Source of the DNA: an uncultured Gammaproteobacteria bacterium
Lineage (GTDB): Bacteria; Pseudomonadota; Gammaproteobacteria; GCA-001735895
DNA: 55,679 nt
Assembly: GCA_937984095.1 (NCBI GenBank)
Contig: CALJYH010000121.1
Location: 1-55,679, forward strand
Reading direction: 5' to 3'
The notes below the pieces were generated by a model that was given only the letters and a program-made list of their open reading frames with translations, did no database searches and was not told the DNA's origin. Each line of letters opens with the position of its first letter. The first letter of the stretch is position 1. The position numbers were made by a program, and so were the translations under genes. This document shows positions 32,208 through 44,980 of the stretch, one piece after another.

Positions 32208-33038
32208 TTAGTAGGCACGCTTTTGGGATGCGCCCTGGTATAAAATATCTGCCCAGTTGCGGTTTGCCTTTTCGCGCTCGTTAACTCCTTCGGGATCCAT
32301 ATCGTGGCTGGGCCGCTTGAGATAAACAAAATCCGGCTGTGCACAATTACCTCGCATCGGCAGCCAGTAGTTTTCACCCAGGGTCTGACGTGCACCGGCG
32401 GGCATGTAAGCCTGCATTGCGAATCCGATCCGCCGTTGTTGACTCCGGTTCGGCTGCGACCCATGGATTACCTTTGCGTGGTGCAATGACATTTGTCCGG
32501 GTTTTAGAATCAAATCGACTGCAGTTGATTCGTCGATGTTCTGTATTTCCTGGCCACGGGTCAGAATATTGTCTTGGTGGAAGGTTTCCTGGTGCGGTTG
32601 TATCGAATTCTGATGACTTCCCGGAATCATGCTCATACAACCGGTTTCACGATTACTTGCAGTTAACGCGACCCAGGAGGTGACATAGTTGTGCGGCGTA
32701 ATACCCATATAGGTCGCATCCTGGTGCCAGCTTACGAAGTGACTGGTTTGTGGTTCCTTGATAAACAATACGCTACCCCACAGCGCGAAGTCGCGTCCAA
32801 TCAAATCCTCGACCGCATCCAGAATTACGGGGTGATGTGCCAGTTCATCGAGAAATTTAAAGGCCAGGTGTGGATTGTTGCGATTCTCGGCATTTAGCTG
32901 ATCGGGATACTTCGCTTCCGCCGATCTCAGGCGCTGTTCGTATTCCGCGGCCTCGTCTTCGGAAATCACATGGATGGGCGCTATGAATCCCTGCTCGCGA
33001 TACTGCTCTACCTGTTGCTGCGAAAGTACTTTACCCAC
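32208..33038 (-). CDS. PhyH-family Fe(II)/2-oxoglutarate oxygenase
   Basis: FVSWHQDATY (HxD) and HHAKVIHGSQPNRS. GTG start. It lies 18 nt upstream of the ureohydrolase. Confidence 0.8.
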   Translation of the reverse strand: MGKVLSQQQVEQYREQGFIAPIHVISEDEAAEYEQRLRSAEAKYPDQLNAENRNNPHLAFKFLDELAHHPVILDAVEDLIGRDFALWGSVLFIKEPQTSHFVSWHQDATYMGITPHNYVTSWVALTASNRETGCMSMIPGSHQNSIQPHQETFHQDNILTRGQEIQNIDESTAVDLILKPGQMSLHHAKVIHGSQPNRSQQRRIGFAMQAYMPAGARQTLGENYWLPMRGNCAQPDFVYLKRPSHDMDPEGVNEREKANRNWADILYQGASQKRAY

Positions 33039-33125: not shown

Positions 33126-33329
33126 ATGAAAAAACTCGACAAACAAACGCTGATGGGTATCCGCGACCAGTTCGGCAGTTACGCCTGGGACGATGCGGAA
33201 ATTTCGGAGTTGGTGGACCCGCAGCTGGGTATCATCACCGGCTTCCAGGAACTTCTCGACCAGCTCGAGGTATTACGTAAAATCGACCTCGAAGCAATGC
33301 CCCCCGCCGGCGATATAATCACCAAATGA
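33126..33329 (+). CDS. GatC/AtzG-like small amidase partner
   Basis: 67 aa, acidic, ending ...LEVLRKIDLEAMPPAGDIITK as GatC-type subunits do. Its stop overlaps the amidase ATG as ATGA. Confidence 0.5.
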   Translation: MKKLDKQTLMGIRDQFGSYAWDDAEISELVDPQLGIITGFQELLDQLEVLRKIDLEAMPPAGDIITK

Positions 33330-34687
33330 GCGCCTCGCCGGCGTTTGCGCCGATCACCGAAATCAACCTGCGGTTGCGCAATGGCGATCTCAGCGCCATT
33401 GAATTGGTCAATTTGTATACGGACCGAATCGAGCGCTTTGGTGAGATCAGCAAGGCCTTTATCAGTCTCGATACCAAAAGCGCACTCTCAAAAGCAGAAA
33501 TAATTGATGAAAGTTTTAAAGATGATCTGCCTCTCAATGGAATTCCCTACGCCTGCAAGGACTTGTTTGATGTTAAAGGTCTGCCGACCACGGCAGGGTC
33601 GCAGGTGCTGCAGGATAACGTGGCGCAACAGGATGCGGCAGCGATCAAATGCATGAACCAGGCCGGCGCAATATGCATCGGCAAAAACAACCTGCACGAG
33701 TTTGCCTACGGCGCGACGGGTGAAAATACGCTTTACGGTACGGTGCCCAATCCCTATGACCAGTCACGTCTTGCAGGCGGTTCGAGCAGCGGTTCGGCTG
33801 CTGCGGTGGGCTTCGGCCTTTGCGCCGCGGCGCTCGGTACCGATACCGGTGGATCGGTTCGTGCACCCGCTGCCCTTTGCGGGCTGGTGGGTTTCAAACC
33901 AACCTACGGGCGCATCAGTACCGAGGGCGTCATACCTTATTCATGGACACTTGACCATGTCGGCACACTTACCCGTAGCGTGGCCGATGTTGGGCTTTTA
34001 TTTGATTCACTGGCGCTAGAGTCGCAACCTCCAGTGCAGAAAGGTCTGGATAATCTGACTATTGGAATCCCGGAGTCTTTCTTTTTTAATCGATGCGACA
34101 GCGAAATTCTAGACAGCATCGACGCGCTAATGAATTTTTTACGCCAGGCCGGTGCGAATCTCAAACCGGTATCCATGCCATCGATGGAATATACCCGCAC
34201 GGTATCACTGACAGTACAAATGCCGGAGGCACTGTCCTATCACAATCGCTACCTGGAACAGCGAGGGCATTTGTACAGCCAGGATTTCCGCGCGGGGCTG
34301 GCGCTGGGCCAATGCCTGCTTGCCGAGCAATATATCCGCGCCAAGCGTTTCATCGAAACCTACCGCAACGATATGGGCAAGGTATTTGCAGAGGTCGATG
34401 TGCTACTGACGCCCGCAACGCCGGTGATAGCGCCGAAAATCGGCGTGGTCGAGGTGACCGTAGATGGATATTCCGAGCCCGCCGGAAACGCAATAACCCG
34501 GTACACCTCTTTCTTTAACATGACCGGGCATCCGGCAATTACACTGCCTTGCGGCTTACACGGCGAGGGCTTGCCGATCGGAGCGCAGCTAGTCGGCAGG
34601 CATTTTGGCGACGAGCAATTAATCGACATTGCAGAACAGATTGAATCTTGCTACGACTTCGAACTGCCTCTGCCGAACCTGGATTAA
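33326..34687 (+). CDS. amidase-signature amidase (GatA/AtzE-like)
   Basis: GGSSSGSAAAV and catalytic Lys in PYACKDLFD. 453 aa. Confidence 0.85.
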   Translation: MSASPAFAPITEINLRLRNGDLSAIELVNLYTDRIERFGEISKAFISLDTKSALSKAEIIDESFKDDLPLNGIPYACKDLFDVKGLPTTAGSQVLQDNVAQQDAAAIKCMNQAGAICIGKNNLHEFAYGATGENTLYGTVPNPYDQSRLAGGSSSGSAAAVGFGLCAAALGTDTGGSVRAPAALCGLVGFKPTYGRISTEGVIPYSWTLDHVGTLTRSVADVGLLFDSLALESQPPVQKGLDNLTIGIPESFFFNRCDSEILDSIDALMNFLRQAGANLKPVSMPSMEYTRTVSLTVQMPEALSYHNRYLEQRGHLYSQDFRAGLALGQCLLAEQYIRAKRFIETYRNDMGKVFAEVDVLLTPATPVIAPKIGVVEVTVDGYSEPAGNAITRYTSFFNMTGHPAITLPCGLHGEGLPIGAQLVGRHFGDEQLIDIAEQIESCYDFELPLPNLD

Positions 34688-35597: not shown

Positions 35598-35867
35598 ATG
35601 ACTGATCCAACAATCGCAGACAACAAGCCGGCCAGGGTAGCGCTCGAGAAAGACAGGAAATACTATTTCTGCATGTGCGGACGAAGCAACAATCAACCTT
35701 TTTGCGATGGCTCACACAAGGGCAGCGAGTTTTCACCAATGGCCTTTGTTTGCGATGCCAGCAAGGACTATTACCTGTGCCGATGCAAGCATAGCGGCAA
35801 CAAACCCTATTGCGATGGCACCCACAAACAGTTCGACGATGACCAGGTCGGAAAGCCCCTCAGCTAG
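35598..35867 (+). CDS. CDGSH iron-sulfur domain protein (two motifs)
   Basis: CMCGRSNNQPFCDGSH and CRCKHSGNKPYCDGTH. Confidence 0.85.
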   Translation: MTDPTIADNKPARVALEKDRKYYFCMCGRSNNQPFCDGSHKGSEFSPMAFVCDASKDYYLCRCKHSGNKPYCDGTHKQFDDDQVGKPLS

Positions 35868-35880
35868 TTTAAGTTGAGAT

Positions 35881-36363
35881 TTATCCGCAAAGTTGCGGAC
35901 TTCCCCCCTCACTGGCGTCTTTGCCATATACCATGCGTTCTATTCCGGCCCAGTAGGCTGCCGCCTCGCACATCGGGCAGGCCGGTGACGACGAATACAG
36001 AATGCAGCGACTGAGATCGCGCGAATTGAGTCGACGCGCCGCATCCCGAATGGCTTCCATCTCGGCGTGAGCAGTTGGATCCTGATTGATTATTACATGA
36101 CTCGGGGATTGACCAACGATTTTACCATCGCGAACTACGACCGCCCCATAGCCCTGATCACCGCTTTCGATTGCCCGTTTTTGCATGGCAAAGGCGCGTA
36201 CTATGAATGACGTATCATCGCTTCGATCAGGCTGCTCGATTGATTCCGATTCCGCACTGCTCGCCAGGCTATCACGCGCTGCGAGCACCGGGAACATTCC
36301 CGCCACAGCAAGCACTAGTGCTCGCCTTTTTACGTTTGGTTGTTTAACCATGATTATTCCCAT
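35881..36363 (-). CDS. CDA-fold nucleoside/nucleobase deaminase with N-terminal export signal
   Basis: Zinc motifs HAEMEAI and PCPMCEAA. The N-terminus is VKRRALVLAVAGMFPVLAARDSLA. An alternative start lies at 36351. Confidence 0.8.
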   Translation of the reverse strand: MGIIMVKQPNVKRRALVLAVAGMFPVLAARDSLASSAESESIEQPDRSDDTSFIVRAFAMQKRAIESGDQGYGAVVVRDGKIVGQSPSHVIINQDPTAHAEMEAIRDAARRLNSRDLSRCILYSSSPACPMCEAAAYWAGIERMVYGKDASEGGSPQLCG

Positions 36364-36469: not shown

Positions 36470-36634
36470 ATGGGCGAATGTCCGGTATGTGCGGCCGAAG
36501 TCGAAGTGGCCAACGATGCAATATCTGGCGAGTTGCTGGTCTGCGAAGACTGCGGTGCCGAACTCGAACTAATCAAAACTGATCCGGTTGAACTGGCTGA
36601 AGCGCCTTCGGCCGAAGAGGACTGGGGTCAGTGA
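36470..36634 (+). CDS. lysW: LysW-type amino-group carrier protein
   Basis: 54-aa ORF absent from the track, [54 protein letters not shown]. It has a zinc ribbon (CPVC/CEDC) and an acidic tail. Its stop overlaps the lysX GTG as GTGA. Confidence 0.8.
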
Positions 36635-37467
36635 AAATCGGCCTGCTACATTCGCTGATCCGAAAAGAAGAGAAACTTCTGATCGAAGCATTTCAAAAAG
36701 CGGGTGTGGAACCGATCATGATCGACGATCGCAAGTTGATCATGGACTTTCACAGCGCCCCCGATATCGACATCCTGGTCGAACGTTCAATCAATCACTC
36801 ACGCGCACTGCATGCGCTGCGGCTGTTCGAAAGCGCCGGAGTATGCTGCGTCAACTCACACAGGGTCGCACAGATCTGCGGTGACAAGTTGCTGACCACC
36901 GCCGCGCTGAAGGATCATGGTATCGCGCAGCCCGAAAGCAGGGTCGCTTTTACCGAGGAGTCGGCGCTTGCCGCGATCGAGGAACTGGGCTACCCGGTAG
37001 TTTTGAAACCAGCCGTTGGCTCCTGGGGTAGATTGCTTTCCAAGATCAACGATCGCGATGCCGCCGAGACGGTACTCGAGCACAAGACCGTGCTCGGCAG
37101 CTACCACCACTCAATTTTTTATATTCAGCAATATATCGACAAGCAAGGTCGCGATATCCGCAGTTTCGTGGTCGGCGATGATTGCATTGCTGCCATTTAC
37201 CGTAGCTCCGATCACTGGATCACCAACACCGCCCGCGGCGCCCAGGCGAGTAAGTGCGAGGTGACTGCCGAGGTCGCTGAAATTTCGCTGGCAGCGGCGA
37301 AAGCAGTGGGCGGCGGGATTGTCGCGGTCGACTTGTTCGAAAGCGACAACGGCTTGCTGGTCAACGAGGTCAACTACACGATGGAATTTCGCAACAGTAT
37401 CGATACCACGGGGGTCGATATTCCCCAGGTCGTCGCAAACTACGTCATCGGCCTTGTGAAACAATGA
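36631..37467 (+). CDS. lysX: LysX-type ATP-grasp carrier-protein ligase (RimK family)
   Basis: [55 protein letters not shown] and [26 protein letters not shown] closely match Thermus LysX as I recall it. Confidence 0.9.
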
Positions 37468-38486
37468 TCAAGGTCTCGATTGTCGGAGCCTCGGGTTACA
37501 CCGGTGGCGATTTACTGCGCATCCTGTTATTCCACCCGCAGGTCGAAATTCAACAGGTTACCTCGGAGCGGCACGCGGGCCGACTGGTTTCCAGTGTGCA
37601 CCCCAACCTGCGTAAAATCTGCAGACACAAATTTGTCTCCGTTGCCGAACTCGAGCCTTGTGACGTGATGTTCCTGGGGTTACCGCACGGACAAATGATG
37701 AATCGCCTGGCTGAATTTGAAGGCCTGGCCGACACCTTGATCGATTTATCTGCCGATTTTCGACTGCGCGACAGCGACGCTTTCGAAACCTGGTATGGAA
37801 AACCACACAGCTGCCCGCAAAAACTCGCCGAGTTTGTCTACGGCATTCCAGAGCTTCACCGTGCGGAAATGAAAGCTGCGAAAAGAATCTCGGGTGCTGG
37901 CTGTAACGCTACCGCGACCATTCTCGCGCTGCATCCGCTTTACCAGGCCGGCGTAGTCGAATCGGCCGTGGTTGAGGTAAAAGCCGGCTCCAGCCAGGGT
38001 GGCAATGTAGTCAGTGAAGGCAGCCATCATCCGGAACGCAGCGGTGCAGTGCGCTCCTACAAACCAACCGCCCATCGTCACCTCGGGGAAATCCAGCAGG
38101 AACTGGGCGCAGAAAATATTCATTTCTCGGCGACCTCGATCGAGATGGTGCGCGGAATCCTGGCAACCTGTCATGTTTTTCTGAACCAGGACCTGGAAGA
38201 AAAAGATATCTGGAAGCTCTACCGCGGCGCCTACGGAAACGAACCTTTTATCCGCATCGTCAAGGAGCGCAGCGGTATCCATCGTTATCCGGAACCGAAA
38301 ATTCTGGCTGGCAGTAATTACTGTGATATCGGCTTCGAGCGCGACCCGCACAGTAATCGACTGGTCGTGATCAGCGCACTGGATAACCTCATGAAAGGCG
38401 CGGCGGGCCAGGCAGTGCAGGCCTTCAATATTGCGCAGGGATTCGACGAAACCACGGGACTCGAATTTCCTGGACTGCACCCCTGA
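37464..38486 (+). CDS. lysY: LysY/ArgC-type carrier-linked acyl-phosphate reductase
   Basis: [21 protein letters not shown] fold and catalytic Cys in [13 protein letters not shown] overlap with lysX. Confidence 0.85.
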
Positions 38487-38498
38487 TTCTGCACCGAC

Positions 38499-39134
38499 AT
38501 GTGTCGCATTCTCTATGCTCGAGCCGAGACGCAATTTTCGATTGCGGAGTTACTCGCACCCTTCGCCGAGGTCTCACGCGATAGCCGCGAGTTCCAGGGT
38601 CACGGTTGGGGCTGTGCCTGGCGCGAAGACGACGGTTGGCATCAATACCACGATATCCGCCCGATCTGGGAGGATGATCTGGAGCAATTTGGGCACACTC
38701 AGCTGTTACTGGTGCATGCGCGCAGCGCGTTTCGCGATGAGGGTATCGTCATCGAAAACAATATGCCCTTCTCCGACGGTGAGTCGATTTTCATCTTCAA
38801 TGGTGAGTTGCGCGGAGTACGAATTAAATCGGAAGGTCGTATCGGTGCAGAAAAAATCTACAACTATATTCGCCGCTTCGACAAGGGCGATAAATGCCAG
38901 GCCACCAATAAGGCTGTCGACATAATCAAAAAACGCAGTGCCTACGTGCGCGCGATGAATATTATTCTCTCCGACGGAAAACAATCGTGCCTGTCCACCA
39001 GTTACGGCGAAGACCCAGAATACTTTCAAATGCATCAGAAACATCACCAGGACCTGCATCTGGTATGCTCGCAACCGTTCGCTGGAGACAGCGACTGGTC
39101 CACAATCGCTAACAACACGACGATCGAATTATGA
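38499..39134 (+). CDS. class II (Ntn) glutamine amidotransferase-like protein
   Basis: N-terminal Met-Cys (MCRILYA), HGWGCAW, LLLVHARSAFRDEG, NNMPF and FIFNGEL follow the layout of YafJ/EgtC-type Ntn amidohydrolases. Its stop overlaps the lysZ ATG. Confidence 0.7.
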   Translation: MCRILYARAETQFSIAELLAPFAEVSRDSREFQGHGWGCAWREDDGWHQYHDIRPIWEDDLEQFGHTQLLLVHARSAFRDEGIVIENNMPFSDGESIFIFNGELRGVRIKSEGRIGAEKIYNYIRRFDKGDKCQATNKAVDIIKKRSAYVRAMNIILSDGKQSCLSTSYGEDPEYFQMHQKHHQDLHLVCSQPFAGDSDWSTIANNTTIEL

Positions 39135-39922
39135 TGCTGATAAAAATCGGCGGCGGCGAACGAATTAATCTCGAAGCCGCAATCGAAGATCTGGCGACAC
39201 TCGAGCAGCCATTTGTCATCGTGCATGGGGCCAACGTACTACGCGATCAACTGGCGCAACAACTGGGTAAGGAAAAGACGGTACTCACTTCTGTCTCAGG
39301 ATACAGCAGCGTTTTTTCCGATCAGGATGCAATCGATATCATCATGATGAGTTACTCGGGCCTGCGTAATAAGCAGATCGTTGAACTGTGCCAACGTAAT
39401 GAAATCAACGCAGTCGGTCTGACCGGCCTCGATGGTCGCCTGGTCCAGGGGGAACGTAACAAGGGCATCCGTGTGCGTGAAAACGGTAAGACCCTGATCA
39501 AGAGGGATCTTTCGGGTAAACCGCGCTCCATTAACAGCCAGTTATTGACGCTATTGCTGGAAAGCGGTTACTGCCCGGTGCTGACGATCCCCATCGCCGA
39601 CGAAAAAGGCTTTGCAATAAACTCGGAGAACGACGATATCGTTGCCCGGATTGCGAGCGCACTCGAAATCGATACGGTGATTCAATTGATCGAAGCGCCC
39701 GGGTTTCTCGATGATCCCGCTGACGAAACCTCGCTGGTAACCAGCATGAGTCTCGGTGAGCTAGAGCGTCGTGAAGCGAACGTCGAAGGACGTATCAAAC
39801 GCAAGCTGCTCGCGCTGACACGACTTTGCCAGGACGGCAAAACCCGGGTCATCATCGCCGATGGCCGCCGCGAGCAACCCATTATCAGCGCACTCGAAGG
39901 TGCCGGGACACATATCTCATGA
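39131..39922 (+). CDS. lysZ: LysZ/ArgB-type carrier-linked amino acid kinase
   Basis: Amino-acid-kinase fold: LIKIGGG, VIVHGAN, GLTGLDG. Confidence 0.85.
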   Translation: MMLIKIGGGERINLEAAIEDLATLEQPFVIVHGANVLRDQLAQQLGKEKTVLTSVSGYSSVFSDQDAIDIIMMSYSGLRNKQIVELCQRNEINAVGLTGLDGRLVQGERNKGIRVRENGKTLIKRDLSGKPRSINSQLLTLLLESGYCPVLTIPIADEKGFAINSENDDIVARIASALEIDTVIQLIEAPGFLDDPADETSLVTSMSLGELERREANVEGRIKRKLLALTRLCQDGKTRVIIADGRREQPIISALEGAGTHIS

Positions 39923-41073
39923 CTGATTACAAAGCACTCGAACACGAATATGGCATACCGTTACAGGCAAAACGCGACCTGGTTGCGGTCCGTGGAAACG
40001 GGGCCTTGCTTTACGACGAGCAGGATCGGGAGTATATCGATTGCGCCGCCGGAATCGCCGTCGCCTCACTCGGGCACTGCCATCCAAAGCTGATCGTAGC
40101 GATCAAGCAACAGGCCGAAACCCTGATTACCTGCCCTAACATCATGTACAACGACGTGCGCTCGAAACTGCTCAAAAAACTGGTAGAGGTAACCCCCGAG
40201 AGCCTGACTCGCGCCTATTTATGCAACTCGGGTGCCGAGTCGATCGAGGCCGCACTCAAGTTTGCGCGCCTGCACACCGGGCGGACCAACTTTGTCACCG
40301 CGATGCGCGGTTTCCACGGTCGCACCATGGGTGCGGTCAGCGCCACTTACACACCAAAATATCGCGAAGCATTTCAGCCGCTGATTCCCGGCTTCGACTA
40401 CGTACCCTTCAATAAGATCGAAAAGCTCGATGCCGCGGTGAACGACAATACCGCGGCCGTTATGTTCGAGCTGGTGCAGGGTGAAGGCGGCGTCAATCCG
40501 ATCCAGGCCGACTATCTCGCGGCCGTGCGCAAGCTCTGTTCCGAGCGTGGAGTATTGCTGATTATCGATGAAATCCAGACTGGATTCTGTCGAACCGGGA
40601 GATTCTTTGCCTGTAATCATTTCGACCTGCAACCCGACCTCATGTGCGTGGCCAAGGCGATGGGTGGCGGTGTACCCATTGGCGCCACCCTGCTTAATGC
40701 CGACATTAATATCGAGCCCGGGCTGCATGGTACGACCTTCGGCGGTAACCCGTTGGCCTGTGCCGCGGCGTTAGCGGCGATCGATGTCTATCAGACCGAT
40801 AACCTGGCACAACGGGCTGCGGAGCTGGGTGATTATTTCGAACAACAGCTAAACGTTGCCGACCTTTCCCAGGTGCGTGCATTGCGCCGACTCGGCTTGA
40901 TGATCGGTATCGAGCTCAAGCAAAAGGTGCAGGGCAAGCTGGCAGAGTTACTAGAGCATCGCATCATCGCGTTGCCGGCAGGGCCTAACGTGATCCGAAT
41001 GTTGCCGCCGTTAGTCATCGAGAAAGAACAGATTGACCGGGTCGTCAAGACCTTACGCCAGTTGCTGGCTTGA
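39919..41073 (+). CDS. lysJ: LysJ/ArgD-type class III aminotransferase
   Basis: [29 protein letters not shown], and PLP Lys context [11 protein letters not shown] 39919 overlaps the lysZ stop. The track extension back to 39826 is rejected. Confidence 0.85.
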
Positions 41074-42982: not shown

Positions 42983-44980
42983 ATGAAAAAGGCTGGTTTC
43001 AAGGTTCTGGAAAACGAGTGGATTACGCTGTCCGACGGGCGTAAATTATCGGCCCGGATCTGGATGCCTGAAACTGCCGCGAAAACGCCATTACCCGCAA
43101 TCCTCGAATATATTCCCTACCGCAAACGCGATGGCACTGCACAGCGCGATGAAAGTACCTACCCAGCATTTGCCGAGGCGGGTTATATAGGGGTTCGTGT
43201 CGATATCTCGGGTACCGGTGAATCTGATGGTGACTGGGACGACGAATATTCAGCCCGCGAACTGGCCGATGGCTGTGAGGTCATCGAATGGATCGCAAGC
43301 CAGGACTGGTGCGATGGCAATCTTGGGATGATGGGGATTTCCTGGGGTGGTTTCAACAGCCTGCAGATTGCCGCTTTAAAACCGTCAGCGCTAAAGGCCG
43401 TAATCTCGATCGGCACTACGGTCGATCGTTATAACGACGATATTCATTACAAGAATGGTTGCCTGCTCTACTCCAATTTCTTCTGGTCGAGCACGATGCT
43501 TTGCTACGCATCCCGCCCGCCCGATCCCGACCTGGTTGGAGATAGCTGGCGCGAAACCTGGTTACAGCGTTTGAACACACAGCCGTTTCCGCTGCAGGCC
43601 TGGCTGGCCCATCAACGCAAAGACGATTACTGGAAACATGGATCGATCAACGAAAATTACAATGATATCGAGATACCCGCACTGGTAATCTCGGGTTGGG
43701 CCGATGGTTATATCAATGCGCCACCTGCGGCGGCAACCCATTTAAAGAACGCCAAGGCAATTAATGGCCCCTGGATTCACAAGTATCCACATTTTGCACT
43801 CCCGAGACCGCGCCTGGATTTCCTCAAAGAAGCAATCAACTGGTGGGACAAGTGGCTCAAGCGTATCGATAACGGTGTCGAGGGTTTACCTGCCTACCGG
43901 GCCTACATCCTCGAAGACGCCAGGCCGCTATTGCATCACGAAACCGAACCCGGCCGTTGGGTCTCGGAAGCAGAACTCCCCTCACCCGATACCCGGGAGC
44001 GCAACTACTACCTGGCTCCGAATCGGCAACTGCTCGATATTCCCGGCAGAACCAGCGAAAAGAAATTGACCTCACCCCAGGATTGCGGCACCAGCTGTGG
44101 CGAGTTTTTTACACTGAAACCCGATGGCGAAATGCCTTCCGACCAACGCCGGGATGACTCCGGATCGCTCGTATTCGACAGCGGCAAGCTGCATCAACCC
44201 ATCGAAATCCTGGGACGTCCCAGGATTCGATTAAAAGTTTCTATCGATAAACCGCTCGGAAATATCGCGGTACGCTTGAATGATATTCATCCCAATGGTG
44301 AAGTTTCGAGGGTTAGCTGGGGCGTTCTGAATCTCGCGCATCGTAACGATAACGAAAATCCCGAGCCGATGACCCCGGGTCAACTGGAATCGATTGAGAT
44401 CGAACTGAATGAATGCGGTTATCGCTTCATGCGCGGTCACAAGATGCGCATTGCGGTCTCCAATAACTACTGGCCAATGATCATGCCACCACCCGAAATC
44501 GTCACCGTCACCATTAAACTCGGGCCCGACGCGTTTGTGACATTGCCGGTACGGGCAGGCGTTGATGTCTACGAAGAGCCCGAGCCCGAGGATCAAATTC
44601 CGCTGCCAGCCTACGAAATCAAGGAGCCCGGGCTGAGTCGACGCTGGATCGAGCGAAATTTTCAGACCGGGGAATCGCACTACCGGATTATCGATGACAC
44701 CGGCGAGATCGAAGTGCCCGGTAACGGTATGTGCATGCGACACAGTCATGATGAACGCTGGACCATAGCCGCGGATGACCCACTCAGCCATCGTTCACTG
44801 AGTCGTTATATTAGCTGGATGCGTCGCGGTGACTGGTCGATCAGAACCGAATCGGAAAGCGAGTTTCGATGCGACGCGGATAATTTTTATATCAAGGCCA
44901 AGGTGCGTGCCTACGAGGGTGAAGAACTGCTAAACGAACGTGACTGGGAGGAAATCACTATTCCTCGAGACCACATTTAA
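42983..44980 (+). CDS. CocE/NonD-family (S15) hydrolase
   Basis: LPAILEYIPYRKRDG, nucleophile elbow GISWGG, and a large C-terminal beta domain. 665 aa. Confidence 0.8.
   Translation: MKKAGFKVLENEWITLSDGRKLSARIWMPETAAKTPLPAILEYIPYRKRDGTAQRDESTYPAFAEAGYIGVRVDISGTGESDGDWDDEYSARELADGCEVIEWIASQDWCDGNLGMMGISWGGFNSLQIAALKPSALKAVISIGTTVDRYNDDIHYKNGCLLYSNFFWSSTMLCYASRPPDPDLVGDSWRETWLQRLNTQPFPLQAWLAHQRKDDYWKHGSINENYNDIEIPALVISGWADGYINAPPAAATHLKNAKAINGPWIHKYPHFALPRPRLDFLKEAINWWDKWLKRIDNGVEGLPAYRAYILEDARPLLHHETEPGRWVSEAELPSPDTRERNYYLAPNRQLLDIPGRTSEKKLTSPQDCGTSCGEFFTLKPDGEMPSDQRRDDSGSLVFDSGKLHQPIEILGRPRIRLKVSIDKPLGNIAVRLNDIHPNGEVSRVSWGVLNLAHRNDNENPEPMTPGQLESIEIELNECGYRFMRGHKMRIAVSNNYWPMIMPPPEIVTVTIKLGPDAFVTLPVRAGVDVYEEPEPEDQIPLPAYEIKEPGLSRRWIERNFQTGESHYRIIDDTGEIEVPGNGMCMRHSHDERWTIAADDPLSHRSLSRYISWMRRGDWSIRTESESEFRCDADNFYIKAKVRAYEGEELLNERDWEEITIPRDHI

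What the first reader, a model, noticed from the sequence alone, without database searches (positions are those of the whole stretch)
38499..39134. Ntn (class II) amidotransferase-like gene wedged between lysY and lysZ
The protein starts Met-Cys. It carries HGWG, HARSA, NNMPF and FNGEL blocks, in the arrangement seen in YafJ/EgtC-type Ntn amidohydrolases. EgtC is known to cleave a gamma-glutamyl amide. The gene is translationally coupled to lysZ.

Two non-exclusive hypotheses follow. It may deamidate the carrier's C-terminal Gln to create the loading site. Alternatively it may replace the missing LysK by hydrolysing the gamma-glutamyl-product bond. I do not know of such a component in described LysW pathways.
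Basis: inference. Interest (0 to 1): 0.7.

Follow-up and report, generated by a model that had tools for sequence, protein, structure and literature searches.

The report
Cysteine hydrolase replacing LysK in lysine pathway
A small, uncharacterised cysteine hydrolase is built into carrier-protein (LysW) lysine-biosynthesis operons of many bacteria and archaea exactly where the usual last enzyme (LysK) is missing, and only these operons tolerate a carrier that ends in glutamine instead of glutamate, so it most likely both frees the finished lysine from the carrier and activates the glutamine-ended carrier.

Summary
ORF 38499-39134 (+, 211 aa) starts Met-Cys, carries the four motifs, lies between lysY and lysZ, and overlaps the lysZ start by ATGA. 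The operon's LysW ends EDWGQ, not the canonical EDWGE.

- **Fold.** Class II (Ntn) glutaminase. The AF2 model has pLDDT 92 and its best PDB match is EgtC (TM about 0.8). The sequence fails the Pfam and NCBIfam cut-offs, so this is an uncurated family of about 150 clusters at 50% identity.
- **Synteny.** All 49 genome loci, from at least 10 phyla, carry the gene in a lysW-X-Y-Z-J operon. A second subfamily (30-35% identity; candidate-phyla-radiation bacteria) sits after lysJ, where canonical operons have lysK.
- **LysK absence.** No M20 peptidase is adjacent in any operon carrying this gene. Five of six canonical control operons have one.
- **Carrier terminus.** 36 of 37 informative Gln-ended LysW loci carry the gene. 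It also accompanies Glu-ended carriers (19 of 34), with at least 6 E/Q switches.

Best explanation (confidence about 0.65, inference only): a LysW gamma-glutamyl amidohydrolase that releases lysine and also deamidates Gln-ended LysW, like Dop acting on Pup. I found no description in the searchable literature. No biochemistry exists.

The parts
36470..36634 (+). lysW: amino-group carrier protein (54 aa, zinc ribbon plus acidic tail) ending EDWGQ instead of EDWGE
   Evidence: Pfam PF21344 (E 8.6e-18) and TIGR01206 above its cut-off. Sequence read directly. The three LysW proteins with PDB structures all end EDWGE.
36631..37467 (+). lysX: ATP-grasp ligase that loads alpha-aminoadipate on the carrier's terminal gamma-carboxylate
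   Evidence: TIGR02144 at 342 bits. Its five-residue specificity signature F-I-T-N-S is identical to that of T. thermophilus LysX. The GTG start overlaps the lysW stop.
37464..38486 (+). lysY: carrier-bound aminoadipyl-phosphate reductase (ArgC-like)
   Evidence: TIGR01850 at 391 bits, plus the semialdehyde dehydrogenase Pfam domains.
38499..39134 (+). The finding: a stand-alone Ntn (class II glutaminase-fold) cysteine amidohydrolase. Proposed function: LysW gamma-glutamyl-lysine hydrolase and LysW-Gln deamidase.
   Evidence: The N-terminus is Met-Cys-Arg. R75, N101-G102 and K119 are invariant. The AF2 model has pLDDT 92, and its best fold match is EgtC.
39131..39922 (+). lysZ: [LysW]-aminoadipate kinase; its start overlaps the stop of the hydrolase gene (ATGA)
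   Evidence: NF010659 at 248.5 bits against a cut-off of 223. Overlap read directly.
39919..41073 (+). lysJ: class-III aminotransferase, the last canonical enzyme present; no lysK follows it
   Evidence: PF00202 (E 5.6e-116) and TIGR00707 above its cut-off. The next gene is PEP carboxykinase. There is no M20 peptidase in the window.

Best explanation
The gene encodes a stand-alone N-terminal-nucleophile cysteine amidohydrolase. It acts on the gamma-carboxamide of the C-terminal residue of the carrier protein LysW.

Proposed cycle:
1. LysX loads alpha-aminoadipate on the gamma-carboxylate of the terminal Glu.
2. LysZ, LysY and LysJ convert the tethered aminoadipate to lysine.
3. Cys1 of this enzyme (Cys2 of the ORF, exposed once the initiator Met is removed) attacks the gamma-glutamyl-N(alpha)-lysine isopeptide bond.
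4. Lysine leaves, a LysW-gamma-glutamyl thioester forms, and water regenerates Glu-ended LysW.

In this role it is a non-homologous replacement for the M20 metallohydrolase LysK. A C-terminal glutamine is the same gamma-glutamyl amide with NH3 as the leaving group. The same enzyme would therefore convert a genetically encoded Gln-ended LysW, as in this window, into the loadable Glu form. That would make E-to-Q changes of the carrier terminus neutral.

Shown here: the fold, conservation of the catalytic residues, the obligatory operon membership, the mutual exclusion with lysK in operons, and the link between Gln-ended carriers and this gene.

Inferred: the substrate and both reactions.
For: 1. 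**Synteny.** All 49 loci found in species-representative genomes have the gene in a lysW/X/Y/Z/J operon. They come from Gammaproteobacteria, Calditrichota, Desulfobacterota, Ignavibacteria, Dehalococcoidia, Planctomycetota, KSB1, Woesearchaeota, Methanosarcinales and Heimdallarchaeota.
2. **Second subfamily in the lysK position.** Subfamily B (30-35% identity, same catalytic motifs) sits directly after lysJ. In candidate-phyla-radiation bacteria it is followed by class I lysyl-tRNA synthetase. Canonical operons have an M20 lysK directly after lysJ (after lysZ in L185, where no lysJ is adjacent): P. furiosus, two Anaerolineae-type loci, L185 and L187.
3. **Mutual exclusion with M20.** A profile that includes those LysK-like proteins finds no M20 peptidase in the window or in the 120 metagenome loci. 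In the 49 genome loci it finds one, 5 kb downstream in L018. Five of six canonical control operons have one adjacent, and none of the seven control loci has the hydrolase.
4. **Complete pathways.** Some loci encode the whole aminoadipate route next to the gene: homocitrate synthase, homoaconitase large and small subunits, and homoisocitrate dehydrogenase, then lysX-lysY-hydrolase-lysZ-lysJ, with no lysK.
5. **Carrier terminus, Gln-baited sample.** An unbiased metagenome scan for AP-x3-EDWGQ-stop gave 116 true Gln-ended LysW genes. Of 37 with informative downstream sequence, 36 carry the gene.
6. **Carrier terminus, hydrolase-baited sample.** 15 of 34 carriers end in Q, against 2 of 115 in a sample baited with Thermus and Thermococcus LysW (Fisher p = 1.3e-9). 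At least 6 independent E/Q switches map on the hydrolase tree.
7. **Not only a deamidase.** The gene is equally conserved beside Glu-ended carriers, so its role cannot be deamidation alone.
8. **Chemistry.** The closest solved structure, EgtC, is itself a partner-less gamma-glutamyl amide hydrolase. Cys2, R75 (by motif alignment to the class II glutaminase Arg73, the alpha-carboxylate binder) and N101-G102 (oxyanion hole) are invariant.
9. **Substrate hint.** The Asp that binds the free alpha-amino group in GlmS and PurF has no conserved acidic counterpart here (G116, or E/Q118). That is expected if the alpha-amino group is in peptide linkage to the carrier (inference).
10. **Product.** The LysX signature F-I-T-N-S equals that of the aminoadipate-specific T. 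thermophilus enzyme in the window and in 35 of 39 LysX copies. The product is therefore lysine.
11. **Precedent.** Dop both removes Pup from lysine isopeptides and deamidates Gln-ended Pup to the ligation-competent Glu form (PMC8599861).
Against: - There is no biochemical or genetic evidence of any kind.
- I could not scan whole genomes, so a lysK or argE homologue elsewhere in these genomes is not excluded. L018 has an M20 peptidase 5 kb downstream. T. thermophilus lysK is also not next to lysW (my recollection), and control L181 has no adjacent M20.
- One Gln-ended operon (L167) lacks the gene and has an alpha/beta-hydrolase between lysY and lysZ.
- Six Gln-ended LysW-like genes are orphans with uninformative context.
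- The residue mapping to GlmS and PurF rests on motif alignment and the helix start in the model. hhalign gave no usable alignment, and the model coordinates could not be inspected.
- The enzyme is not notably basic (window pI 5.6; family median 7.6). A simple electrostatic docking argument with the acidic LysW is therefore not supported.
- The control set of canonical operons is small (7 loci).
Confidence: 0.65

Rival explanations
1. Carrier-maturation deamidase only. The enzyme converts the encoded C-terminal Gln of LysW to Glu once, and product release is done by a LysK or ArgE homologue encoded elsewhere in the genome.
For: 36 of 37 informative Gln-ended LysW loci carry the gene. Class II glutaminase chemistry is exactly Gln side-chain deamidation. 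Whole genomes could not be checked for a distant lysK, and L018 has an M20 peptidase 5 kb away.
Against: 19 of 34 operons carrying this gene have a Glu-ended carrier that needs no maturation, yet the gene and its catalytic residues are fully conserved there. Operons that encode the complete pathway still lack lysK. Subfamily B occupies the lysK slot.
Confidence: 0.12
2. Proofreading or recycling hydrolase. It clears mis-loaded or dead-end carrier adducts (for example LysW-Glu in a lysine-only pathway, or a cyclised or damaged intermediate), while normal release uses another enzyme.
For: The chemistry is the same as in the main hypothesis. T. thermophilus LysX shows measurable mis-loading of glutamate (PMC12998189).
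Against: An accessory editing function would not be expected to be a universal, translationally coupled operon member. It would also not be expected to exclude lysK from the operon.
Confidence: 0.08
3. Transamidase or ATP-independent loader. The gamma-glutamyl thioester formed from LysW-Gln or LysW-Lys is resolved by the alpha-amino group of aminoadipate instead of water. The carrier is thereby re-loaded directly.
For: Ntn enzymes such as gamma-glutamyltranspeptidase perform such transfers (general knowledge). A Gln end would be a pre-activated donor.
Against: The ATP-grasp ligase LysX is retained in every operon where the upstream region is visible, including the Gln-ended ones. No acceptor-binding feature is known.
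Confidence: 0.05
4. Genuine glutamine amidotransferase subunit, or an unrelated glutaminase. It supplies ammonia to a partner enzyme, or another neighbour does the LysK job: the amidase-signature protein at 33326-34687 or the S15 peptidase at 42983-44980.
For: Databases annotate the protein as 'class II glutamine amidotransferase'. An amidase (PF01425) and an S15 hydrolase lie within 2 kb of the operon. The amidase family recurs near the operon in 10 loci.
Against: No step of the pathway needs ammonia, and there is no synthase domain or conserved partner. The amidase and the S15 protein occur only in a few gammaproteobacterial lineages (10 and 3 of 49 loci), whereas the Ntn gene is universal.
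Confidence: 0.05

Closest known systems
EgtC (ergothioneine-biosynthesis amidohydrolase; PDB 4zfj, 4zfk, 4zfl; TIGR03442)
   Same: It is the best structural match (TM 0.78-0.81, E about 5e-13) and the only PDB sequence hit. Both are stand-alone Ntn cysteine hydrolases of about 210-230 aa with an N-terminal Met-Cys-Arg and no synthase domain. EgtC hydrolyses a gamma-glutamyl amide and releases the amine partner.
   Different: Identity is only 18-20%, and the TIGR03442 score is 45 bits against a cut-off of 218. The genomic context is a lysW operon, not an egt cluster. The proposed glutamyl moiety is the C-terminus of a protein, not free gamma-glutamyl. The Asp that EgtC aligns at the alpha-amino-binding position is E or Q, or Gly one turn earlier, in this family.
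LysK ([LysW]-lysine hydrolase, an ArgE/DapE-type M20 metallopeptidase) of the canonical carrier-protein lysine pathway
   Same: The proposed reaction is the same: release of lysine from LysW-gamma-Lys. Subfamily B sits in the same operon slot, directly after lysJ. The two genes are mutually exclusive in operons.
   Different: The fold and mechanism are unrelated: a Cys N-terminal nucleophile with a thioester intermediate, against a dinuclear metal hydrolase. Only the Ntn enzyme would be expected to act also on a Gln terminus.
Dop (deamidase of Pup / depupylase) with Pup(Q/E) and the ligase PafA
   Same: The logic is the same. A small acidic carrier or tag ends in Gln or Glu depending on lineage. 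An ATP-dependent ligase uses the terminal gamma-carboxylate. One hydrolase both deamidates the Gln form and cleaves the gamma-glutamyl isopeptide (PMC8599861).
   Different: Dop has a glutamine-synthetase-like fold and uses ATP-derived phosphate, and it is homologous to its ligase. Here the hydrolase is an Ntn cysteine enzyme unrelated to the ATP-grasp ligase LysX. The bond is to an alpha-amino group of a metabolite, not to a protein lysine.
YafJ-like stand-alone class II glutaminase-domain proteins (PDB 1te5, 3mdn) and the glutaminase domains of GlmS and PurF
   Same: They share the alpha-beta-beta-alpha Ntn fold, the N-terminal Cys, the Arg of the H-x-R motif and the Asn-Gly oxyanion hole.
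   Different: TM scores are lower (0.6-0.75). Pfam GATase_6 and GATase_4 are not reached at their gathering scores. There is no synthase partner, and the alpha-amino-binding Asp is not conserved.

Membership tests
Class II (Ntn) glutamine amidotransferase / glutaminase fold | Cys directly after the initiator Met, serving as N-terminal nucleophile | tested here: met
   The window protein starts Met-Cys-Arg. All 47 orthologues with an intact N-terminus start (M/V/L)-C-R. So do about 104 of 107 full-length cluster representatives with an aligned N-terminus.
Class II (Ntn) glutamine amidotransferase / glutaminase fold | Four-layer alpha-beta-beta-alpha Ntn fold | tested here: met
   The AF2 model has pLDDT 92.1 and pTM 0.90. 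Foldseek matches with probability 1.00 include EgtC, 1te5, 3mdn, GlmS, PurF and GFAT-1 glutaminase domains.
Class II (Ntn) glutamine amidotransferase / glutaminase fold | Arg of the H-x-R motif (alpha-carboxylate binder; Arg73 in PurF and GlmS) and the Asn-Gly oxyanion hole | tested here: met
   H73, R75, N101 and G102 are invariant or nearly so. Their equivalence to PurF and GlmS residues rests on motif alignment, not on a superposition.
Class II (Ntn) glutamine amidotransferase / glutaminase fold | Asp binding the free alpha-amino group of glutamine (GlmS D123, PurF D127) | tested here: not met
   The candidate positions are G116 (invariant Gly, at the helix start in the model) or residue 118 (E in 41 and Q in 51 of 117 sequences). 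The mapping is approximate, because hhalign to GlmS and PurF failed.
Class II (Ntn) glutamine amidotransferase / glutaminase fold | Pfam GATase_4/6/7 gathering score; a fused or partner synthase domain | tested here: not met
   GATase_6 scores 17.1 bits against a cut-off of 27, and no other Pfam hit was found. The protein is a 211-aa single domain with no conserved synthase neighbour.
EgtC (TIGR03442) | Score above the curated equivalog cut-off | tested here: not met
   45.1 bits against a cut-off of 218.65. Identity to 4zfj is 18-20%.
EgtC (TIGR03442) | Context of ergothioneine genes (egtA, egtB, egtD, egtE) | tested here: not met
   In all 49 genome loci the neighbours are lysX, lysY, lysZ and lysJ. 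No egt-type genes appeared in the neighbour families examined.
LysK / ArgE (M20) [LysW]-lysine hydrolase | Peptidase_M20 fold with dimerisation domain | tested here: not met
   No M20 hit was found, and the fold is Ntn. It can only be a functional analogue of LysK.
LysK / ArgE (M20) [LysW]-lysine hydrolase | Hydrolysis of LysW-gamma-Lys | not testable with these tools
   This needs an enzyme assay. It is supported only by operon position and by mutual exclusion with M20 genes.
LysW/AmCP-dependent lysine biosynthesis operon | LysW zinc-ribbon carrier together with LysX, LysY, LysZ and LysJ | tested here: met
   Pfam and NCBIfam hits, three of them above equivalog cut-offs. The LysX signature FITNS equals that of the aminoadipate-specific T. 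thermophilus LysX.
LysW/AmCP-dependent lysine biosynthesis operon | Carrier ends in Glu, whose gamma-carboxylate is the attachment site (EDWGE) | tested here: not met
   The window LysW ends EDWGQ. The three LysW proteins with PDB structures end EDWGE, as do 113 of 120 Thermus/Thermococcus-like LysW proteins.
Dop-type dual deamidase / de-conjugase (analogy only) | Glutamine-synthetase-like fold, ATP/phosphate-dependent | tested here: not met
   The fold is Ntn. The resemblance is one of pathway logic only (PMC8599861).

The most novel reading that the evidence does not exclude
A widespread, undescribed variant of carrier-protein (LysW) lysine biosynthesis exists. In it, an Ntn cysteine amidohydrolase has displaced the metallohydrolase LysK, and the carrier can be encoded as an inactive Gln-ended pro-form. 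One enzyme would then both prime the carrier (Gln to Glu) and release the product. That would be a metabolic counterpart of the Pup/Dop system, arisen by convergence. It occurs from marine Gammaproteobacteria to candidate-phyla-radiation bacteria and DPANN, Methanosarcinales and Heimdall-group archaea.
Probability: 0.55. Interest if true: 0.8.

Novelty: new variant of a known kind. Interest (0 to 1): 0.75.

Why it matters
- **Annotation.** Pathway pipelines call the aminoadipate/LysW lysine route incomplete when lysK is missing. A validated non-homologous replacement would close that gap for lineages spread across at least 10 phyla in this sample, including reduced-genome candidate-phyla-radiation bacteria and abundant marine Gammaproteobacteria. 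It would also give a name to an uncurated family of about 150 clusters at 50% identity.
- **Carrier biochemistry.** It would show that amino-group carrier proteins can be made as Gln-ended pro-forms. That affects anyone expressing these carriers for biochemistry, or using carrier-dependent clusters for natural-product work.
- **Evolution.** It would be a clean case of convergence with Pup/Dop: one hydrolase serving both as activator and as de-conjugase of a gamma-glutamyl-linked carrier.
- **Testability.** The prediction can be tested directly with two mass-spectrometry assays and a C2A control.

Tried and rejected
- **Pfam and NCBIfam membership.** Only sub-threshold hits were found, so I did not file the protein as GATase_6 or EgtC.
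- **Profile alignment to E. coli GlmS and PurF.** hhalign of the family profile against their glutaminase domains gave no meaningful alignment. The residue equivalences therefore rest on motifs and on the helix start in the model.
- **Structure prediction with locus-derived orthologues.** I used database hits from the two subfamilies instead.
- **The two Gln-ended LysW in the Thermus/Thermococcus-baited sample.** Context look-up for P0349 returned contigs that are too short. Their PEPCK neighbour suggests the gammaproteobacterial lineage that carries the hydrolase.
- **Electrostatic complementarity with acidic LysW.** The enzyme's pI is 5.6 (family median 7.6), so no argument can be made from it.
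- **Regulatory RNA and internal signals.** No Rfam hit was found in the window, and promoter or terminator matches are at or below chance.
- **A weak M20 hit in L143.** This is a Gly-rich spurious ORF.
- **Window amidase and S15 peptidase as alternative LysK substitutes.** I rejected these as the general solution because they occur in few lineages.
- **Literature.** Six full-text searches found no paper linking LysW or amino-group carrier proteins to a class II glutaminase, EgtC-like or Ntn enzyme, or to a Gln-ended carrier. Subscription-only papers were not searchable.
Full report
**1. The observation**

The ORF at 38499-39134 (+) is real. It encodes 211 aa and begins Met-Cys-Arg. It contains HGWG (35-38), HARSA (73-77), NNMPF (87-91) and FNGEL (100-104).

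It is the fourth gene of a tightly packed operon:

| Gene | Coordinates |
|---|---|
| lysW | 36470-36634 |
| lysX | 36631-37467 |
| lysY | 37464-38486 |
| this gene | 38499-39134 |
| lysZ | 39131-39922 |
| lysJ | 39919-41073 |

Four of the five junctions are 4-nt overlaps, including ATGA between this gene and lysZ. The fifth, between lysY and this gene, is a 12-nt gap. Pfam and NCBIfam confirm the neighbours, three of them above NCBI's equivalog cut-offs. LysW ends ...EEDWGQ-stop. The next gene after lysJ is PEP carboxykinase. No M20 (LysK/ArgE-type) peptidase is encoded anywhere in the window. I found no riboswitch, and internal promoter or terminator matches do not exceed chance.

**2. What the protein is**

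By sequence it belongs to no curated family. Pfam GATase_6 scores 17 bits against a cut-off of 27. NCBIfam EgtC scores 45 bits against 218. The only PDB sequence hit is EgtC at E about 1e-3.

An AF2 model built on 67 sequences is confident (pLDDT 92, pTM 0.90). Its best PDB matches are the EgtC entries (TM 0.78-0.81). Next come the stand-alone YafJ-like proteins 1te5 and 3mdn, then the glutaminase domains of GlmS, PurF and GFAT-1. It is therefore a stand-alone Ntn (class II glutaminase-fold) cysteine hydrolase.

A profile search of 1.84 billion cluster representatives finds 152 clusters at E <= 1e-30 and 452 at E <= 1e-10. This is a compact, distinct family.

Across 116 full-length representatives these positions are essentially invariant:
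- the start-Cys-Arg N-terminus
- G36-W37-G38, W57, H73, R75 and P90
- N101-G102
- G113 and G116, [A/S]117, [K/R]119
- N154, Y175 and S191

By motif alignment, R75 is the alpha-carboxylate-binding Arg of class II glutaminases, and N101-G102 is the oxyanion hole. The Asp that binds the free alpha-amino group of glutamine (GlmS D123, PurF D127) has no conserved acidic counterpart. The helix that it caps starts at the invariant G116 in the model, and residue 118 is E or Q. I take this as a hint that the alpha-amino group of the substrate's glutamyl residue is not free. This mapping is approximate, because hhalign to GlmS and PurF failed.

**3. Genomic association**

*Genome loci.* Scanning one genome per GTDB species with the protein returned 49 loci. 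They come from Gammaproteobacteria, Calditrichota, Desulfobacterota, Ignavibacteria/Melioribacteraceae, Dehalococcoidia, Planctomycetota, KSB1, Woesearchaeota, Methanosarcinales and Heimdallarchaeota. In every locus the gene is embedded in a lysW/X/Y/Z/J operon, between lysY and lysZ wherever both flanks are visible.

*Upper pathway.* Nine loci also carry homocitrate synthase next to the operon. L020 and L036 carry the full upper pathway: homocitrate synthase, homoaconitase large and small subunits, and homoisocitrate dehydrogenase. These are complete aminoadipate-to-lysine operons without lysK.

*Product.* The five-residue LysX specificity signature is F-I-T-N-S. It is identical to that of the aminoadipate-specific T. 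thermophilus enzyme, both in the window and in 35 of 39 LysX copies. The product is therefore lysine (PMC12998189).

**4. A second subfamily in the lysK position**

The metagenome scan described in section 6 revealed a divergent subfamily B. Its motifs are MCRFL..., DGWG, HARSASF, YNQPF, FNG and G-x-I-G-[AS]-Q-K, and it shares 30-35% identity with the window protein. It lies directly after lysJ.

A protein search shows that it is typical of candidate-phyla-radiation bacteria such as Roizmanbacteria and Shapirobacteria. There the order is lysW-X-Y-Z-J-hydrolase, followed by class I lysyl-tRNA synthetase.

**5. Controls**

The three LysW proteins with solved structures (T. thermophilus, T. kodakarensis, S. 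tokodaii) all end EDWGE. Of the 120 database proteins closest to a Thermus/Thermococcus LysW profile, 113 end EDWGE and 2 end EDWGQ. The rest look like frameshift or read-through artefacts.

Seven such Glu-ended genes with long contigs were inspected:

| Locus | Source | Operon content |
|---|---|---|
| L179 | P. furiosus | full operon, M20 directly after lysJ |
| L180 | Anaerolineae | full operon, M20 directly after lysJ |
| L186 | not determined | full operon, M20 directly after lysJ |
| L187 | not determined | full operon, M20 directly after lysJ |
| L185 | not determined | M20 directly after lysZ |
| L181 | not determined | full operon, no adjacent M20 |
| L182 | not determined | only lysW-lysX |

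None of the seven has the Ntn gene.

Conversely, I built an M20 profile that includes those LysK-like proteins. It finds no M20 in the window or in the 120 metagenome loci. It finds one in the 49 genome loci: L018, 5 kb downstream, in a locus where lysW/X/Y are not adjacent. At operon level, the hydrolase and lysK are therefore mutually exclusive.

**6. The glutamine-ended carrier**

Of these, 116 are true LysW genes ending in Gln. In 37 of them, enough downstream sequence is present to judge. Of those 37, 36 carry the hydrolase: 30 between lysY (or lysX) and lysZ, and 6 after lysJ. The exception, L167, has an alpha/beta-hydrolase with a carboxypeptidase-regulatory-like domain between lysY and lysZ. 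Six Gln-ended LysW-like genes are orphans with uninformative surroundings.

*Hydrolase-baited sample.* This set was not selected on the carrier terminus. In it, 15 of 34 carriers end in Gln and 19 in Glu. At least six independent E/Q switches map on the hydrolase tree. Both states occur within Melioribacteraceae, Calditrichota, the archaeal group and the candidate-phyla-radiation subfamily. The Gln frequency differs sharply from the Thermus/Thermococcus-baited sample: 15 of 34 against 2 of 115, Fisher p = 1.3e-9.

In short, a Gln end implies the hydrolase, but the hydrolase does not imply a Gln end.

**7. Interpretation**

LysX is an ATP-grasp ligase and needs the terminal gamma-carboxylate, so a Gln-ended carrier must be deamidated before it can be loaded. 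The gene is just as conserved beside Glu-ended carriers, which rules out a pure maturation role.

The simplest model that explains all observations is a LysW gamma-glutamyl amidohydrolase. It cleaves the gamma-glutamyl-N(alpha)-lysine bond, which is the LysK reaction, through a Cys1 thioester. For the same chemical reason it accepts the terminal Gln, where the leaving group is NH3. With such an enzyme in the pathway, a G-to-C change in the first base of the last codon (GAR to CAR) is neutral. That explains the repeated E/Q flips seen only in these operons.

The nearest structural relative, EgtC, performs the analogous reaction on a free gamma-glutamyl compound. The same dual logic is experimentally established for Dop, which both depupylates and converts PupQ to PupE (PMC8599861).

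*Shown:* the fold, the conserved catalytic residues, the synteny, the exclusion with lysK, and the Q-terminus association.
*Inferred:* the substrates and both reactions.
My confidence is about 0.65.

**8. Rivals**

- A deamidase-only role, with lysK elsewhere in the genome.
- A proofreading hydrolase.
- A transamidase that re-loads the carrier without ATP.
- A true amidotransferase, or a neighbouring amidase or S15 peptidase doing the LysK job.

The main weakness of the preferred model is that I could not scan whole genomes for a distant lysK. The canonical control set is also small.

**9. Novelty**

Databases label the protein 'hypothetical' or 'class II glutamine amidotransferase', and no curated model covers it. 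Six full-text literature searches found nothing linking LysW or amino-group carrier proteins with such an enzyme or with a Gln-ended carrier. Recent reviews of the pathway list only LysK/ArgE as the hydrolase (PMC12998189, PMC10433800). Subscription-only literature could not be searched.

I rate it a new variant of a known kind: the LysW pathway with a non-homologous last enzyme and a pro-form carrier.

Noticed in passing
window 33126-33329 and 33326-34687 (+): A 67-aa ORF with no Pfam hit overlaps the start of an amidase-signature protein (PF01425, 453 aa) 1.8 kb upstream of lysW. The arrangement recalls GatC/GatA or AtzG/AtzE pairs (my recollection). Proteins of the same BLAST family lie near the lys operon in 10 of 49 loci. 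In L030, L033, L043 and L045 the family member is the next same-strand gene called after lysJ.
   Followed up: partly
L167:6313-7994 (metagenome locus): This is the only informative Gln-ended LysW operon without the Ntn gene. Between lysY and lysZ it has a 133-aa ORF and a 409-aa ORF with CarboxypepD_reg and alpha/beta-hydrolase (DLH/S9-like) hits. It may be a third, unrelated solution for the same step.
   Followed up: partly
L047:8681-10744 and L049:1168-3207: In an uncultured archaeon and a Heimdallarchaeota MAG, the gene after the hydrolase is a fusion of about 680 aa. It matches both the amino-acid kinase (LysZ) and class-III aminotransferase (LysJ) families.
   Followed up: partly
L171-L175 (Roizmanbacteria and related candidate-phyla-radiation contigs): These reduced-genome bacteria carry lysW-X-Y-Z-J plus the subfamily B hydrolase, immediately followed by class I lysyl-tRNA synthetase (PF01921). 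No homocitrate synthase or aconitase is nearby, which suggests they may make lysine from scavenged aminoadipate.
   Followed up: no
L068, L077, L085, L138, L143, L147: These are orphan LysW-like genes ending EDWGQ that are not followed by lysX/Y/Z. Examples are the ALAPEV[DN]EDWGQ type and a copy from a very high-GC genome. Whether their genomes carry the hydrolase is unknown.
   Followed up: partly
L018:6914-15063 (Desulfobacterales chromosome CP070746.1): Here the hydrolase-lysZ-lysJ block stands without adjacent lysW/X/Y, preceded by a 318-aa ORF with no Pfam hit. An M20 peptidase (377 aa) lies 5 kb downstream. This is the only M20 peptidase found near any copy of the hydrolase.
   Followed up: partly
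L036, L039, L046 (Woesearchaeota, Methanosarcinales): Two tandem LysX paralogues precede lysY. One has the FITNS signature and the other an ArgX-like signature (FVIQY or FIIVY). This suggests a bifunctional lysine/arginine carrier system, as in Sulfolobus, but with the Ntn hydrolase instead of LysK.
   Followed up: partly
window 35598-35867 (+), 35881-36363 (-), 42983-44980 (+), 32208-33038 (-): Neighbours of the operon are a two-motif CDGSH iron-sulfur protein, a cytidine/deoxycytidylate-deaminase-family protein with an N-terminal hydrophobic stretch, an S15 (X-Pro dipeptidyl-peptidase/CocE-type) hydrolase and a PhyH-family dioxygenase. They are conserved only in the closest gammaproteobacterial relatives.
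   Followed up: partly
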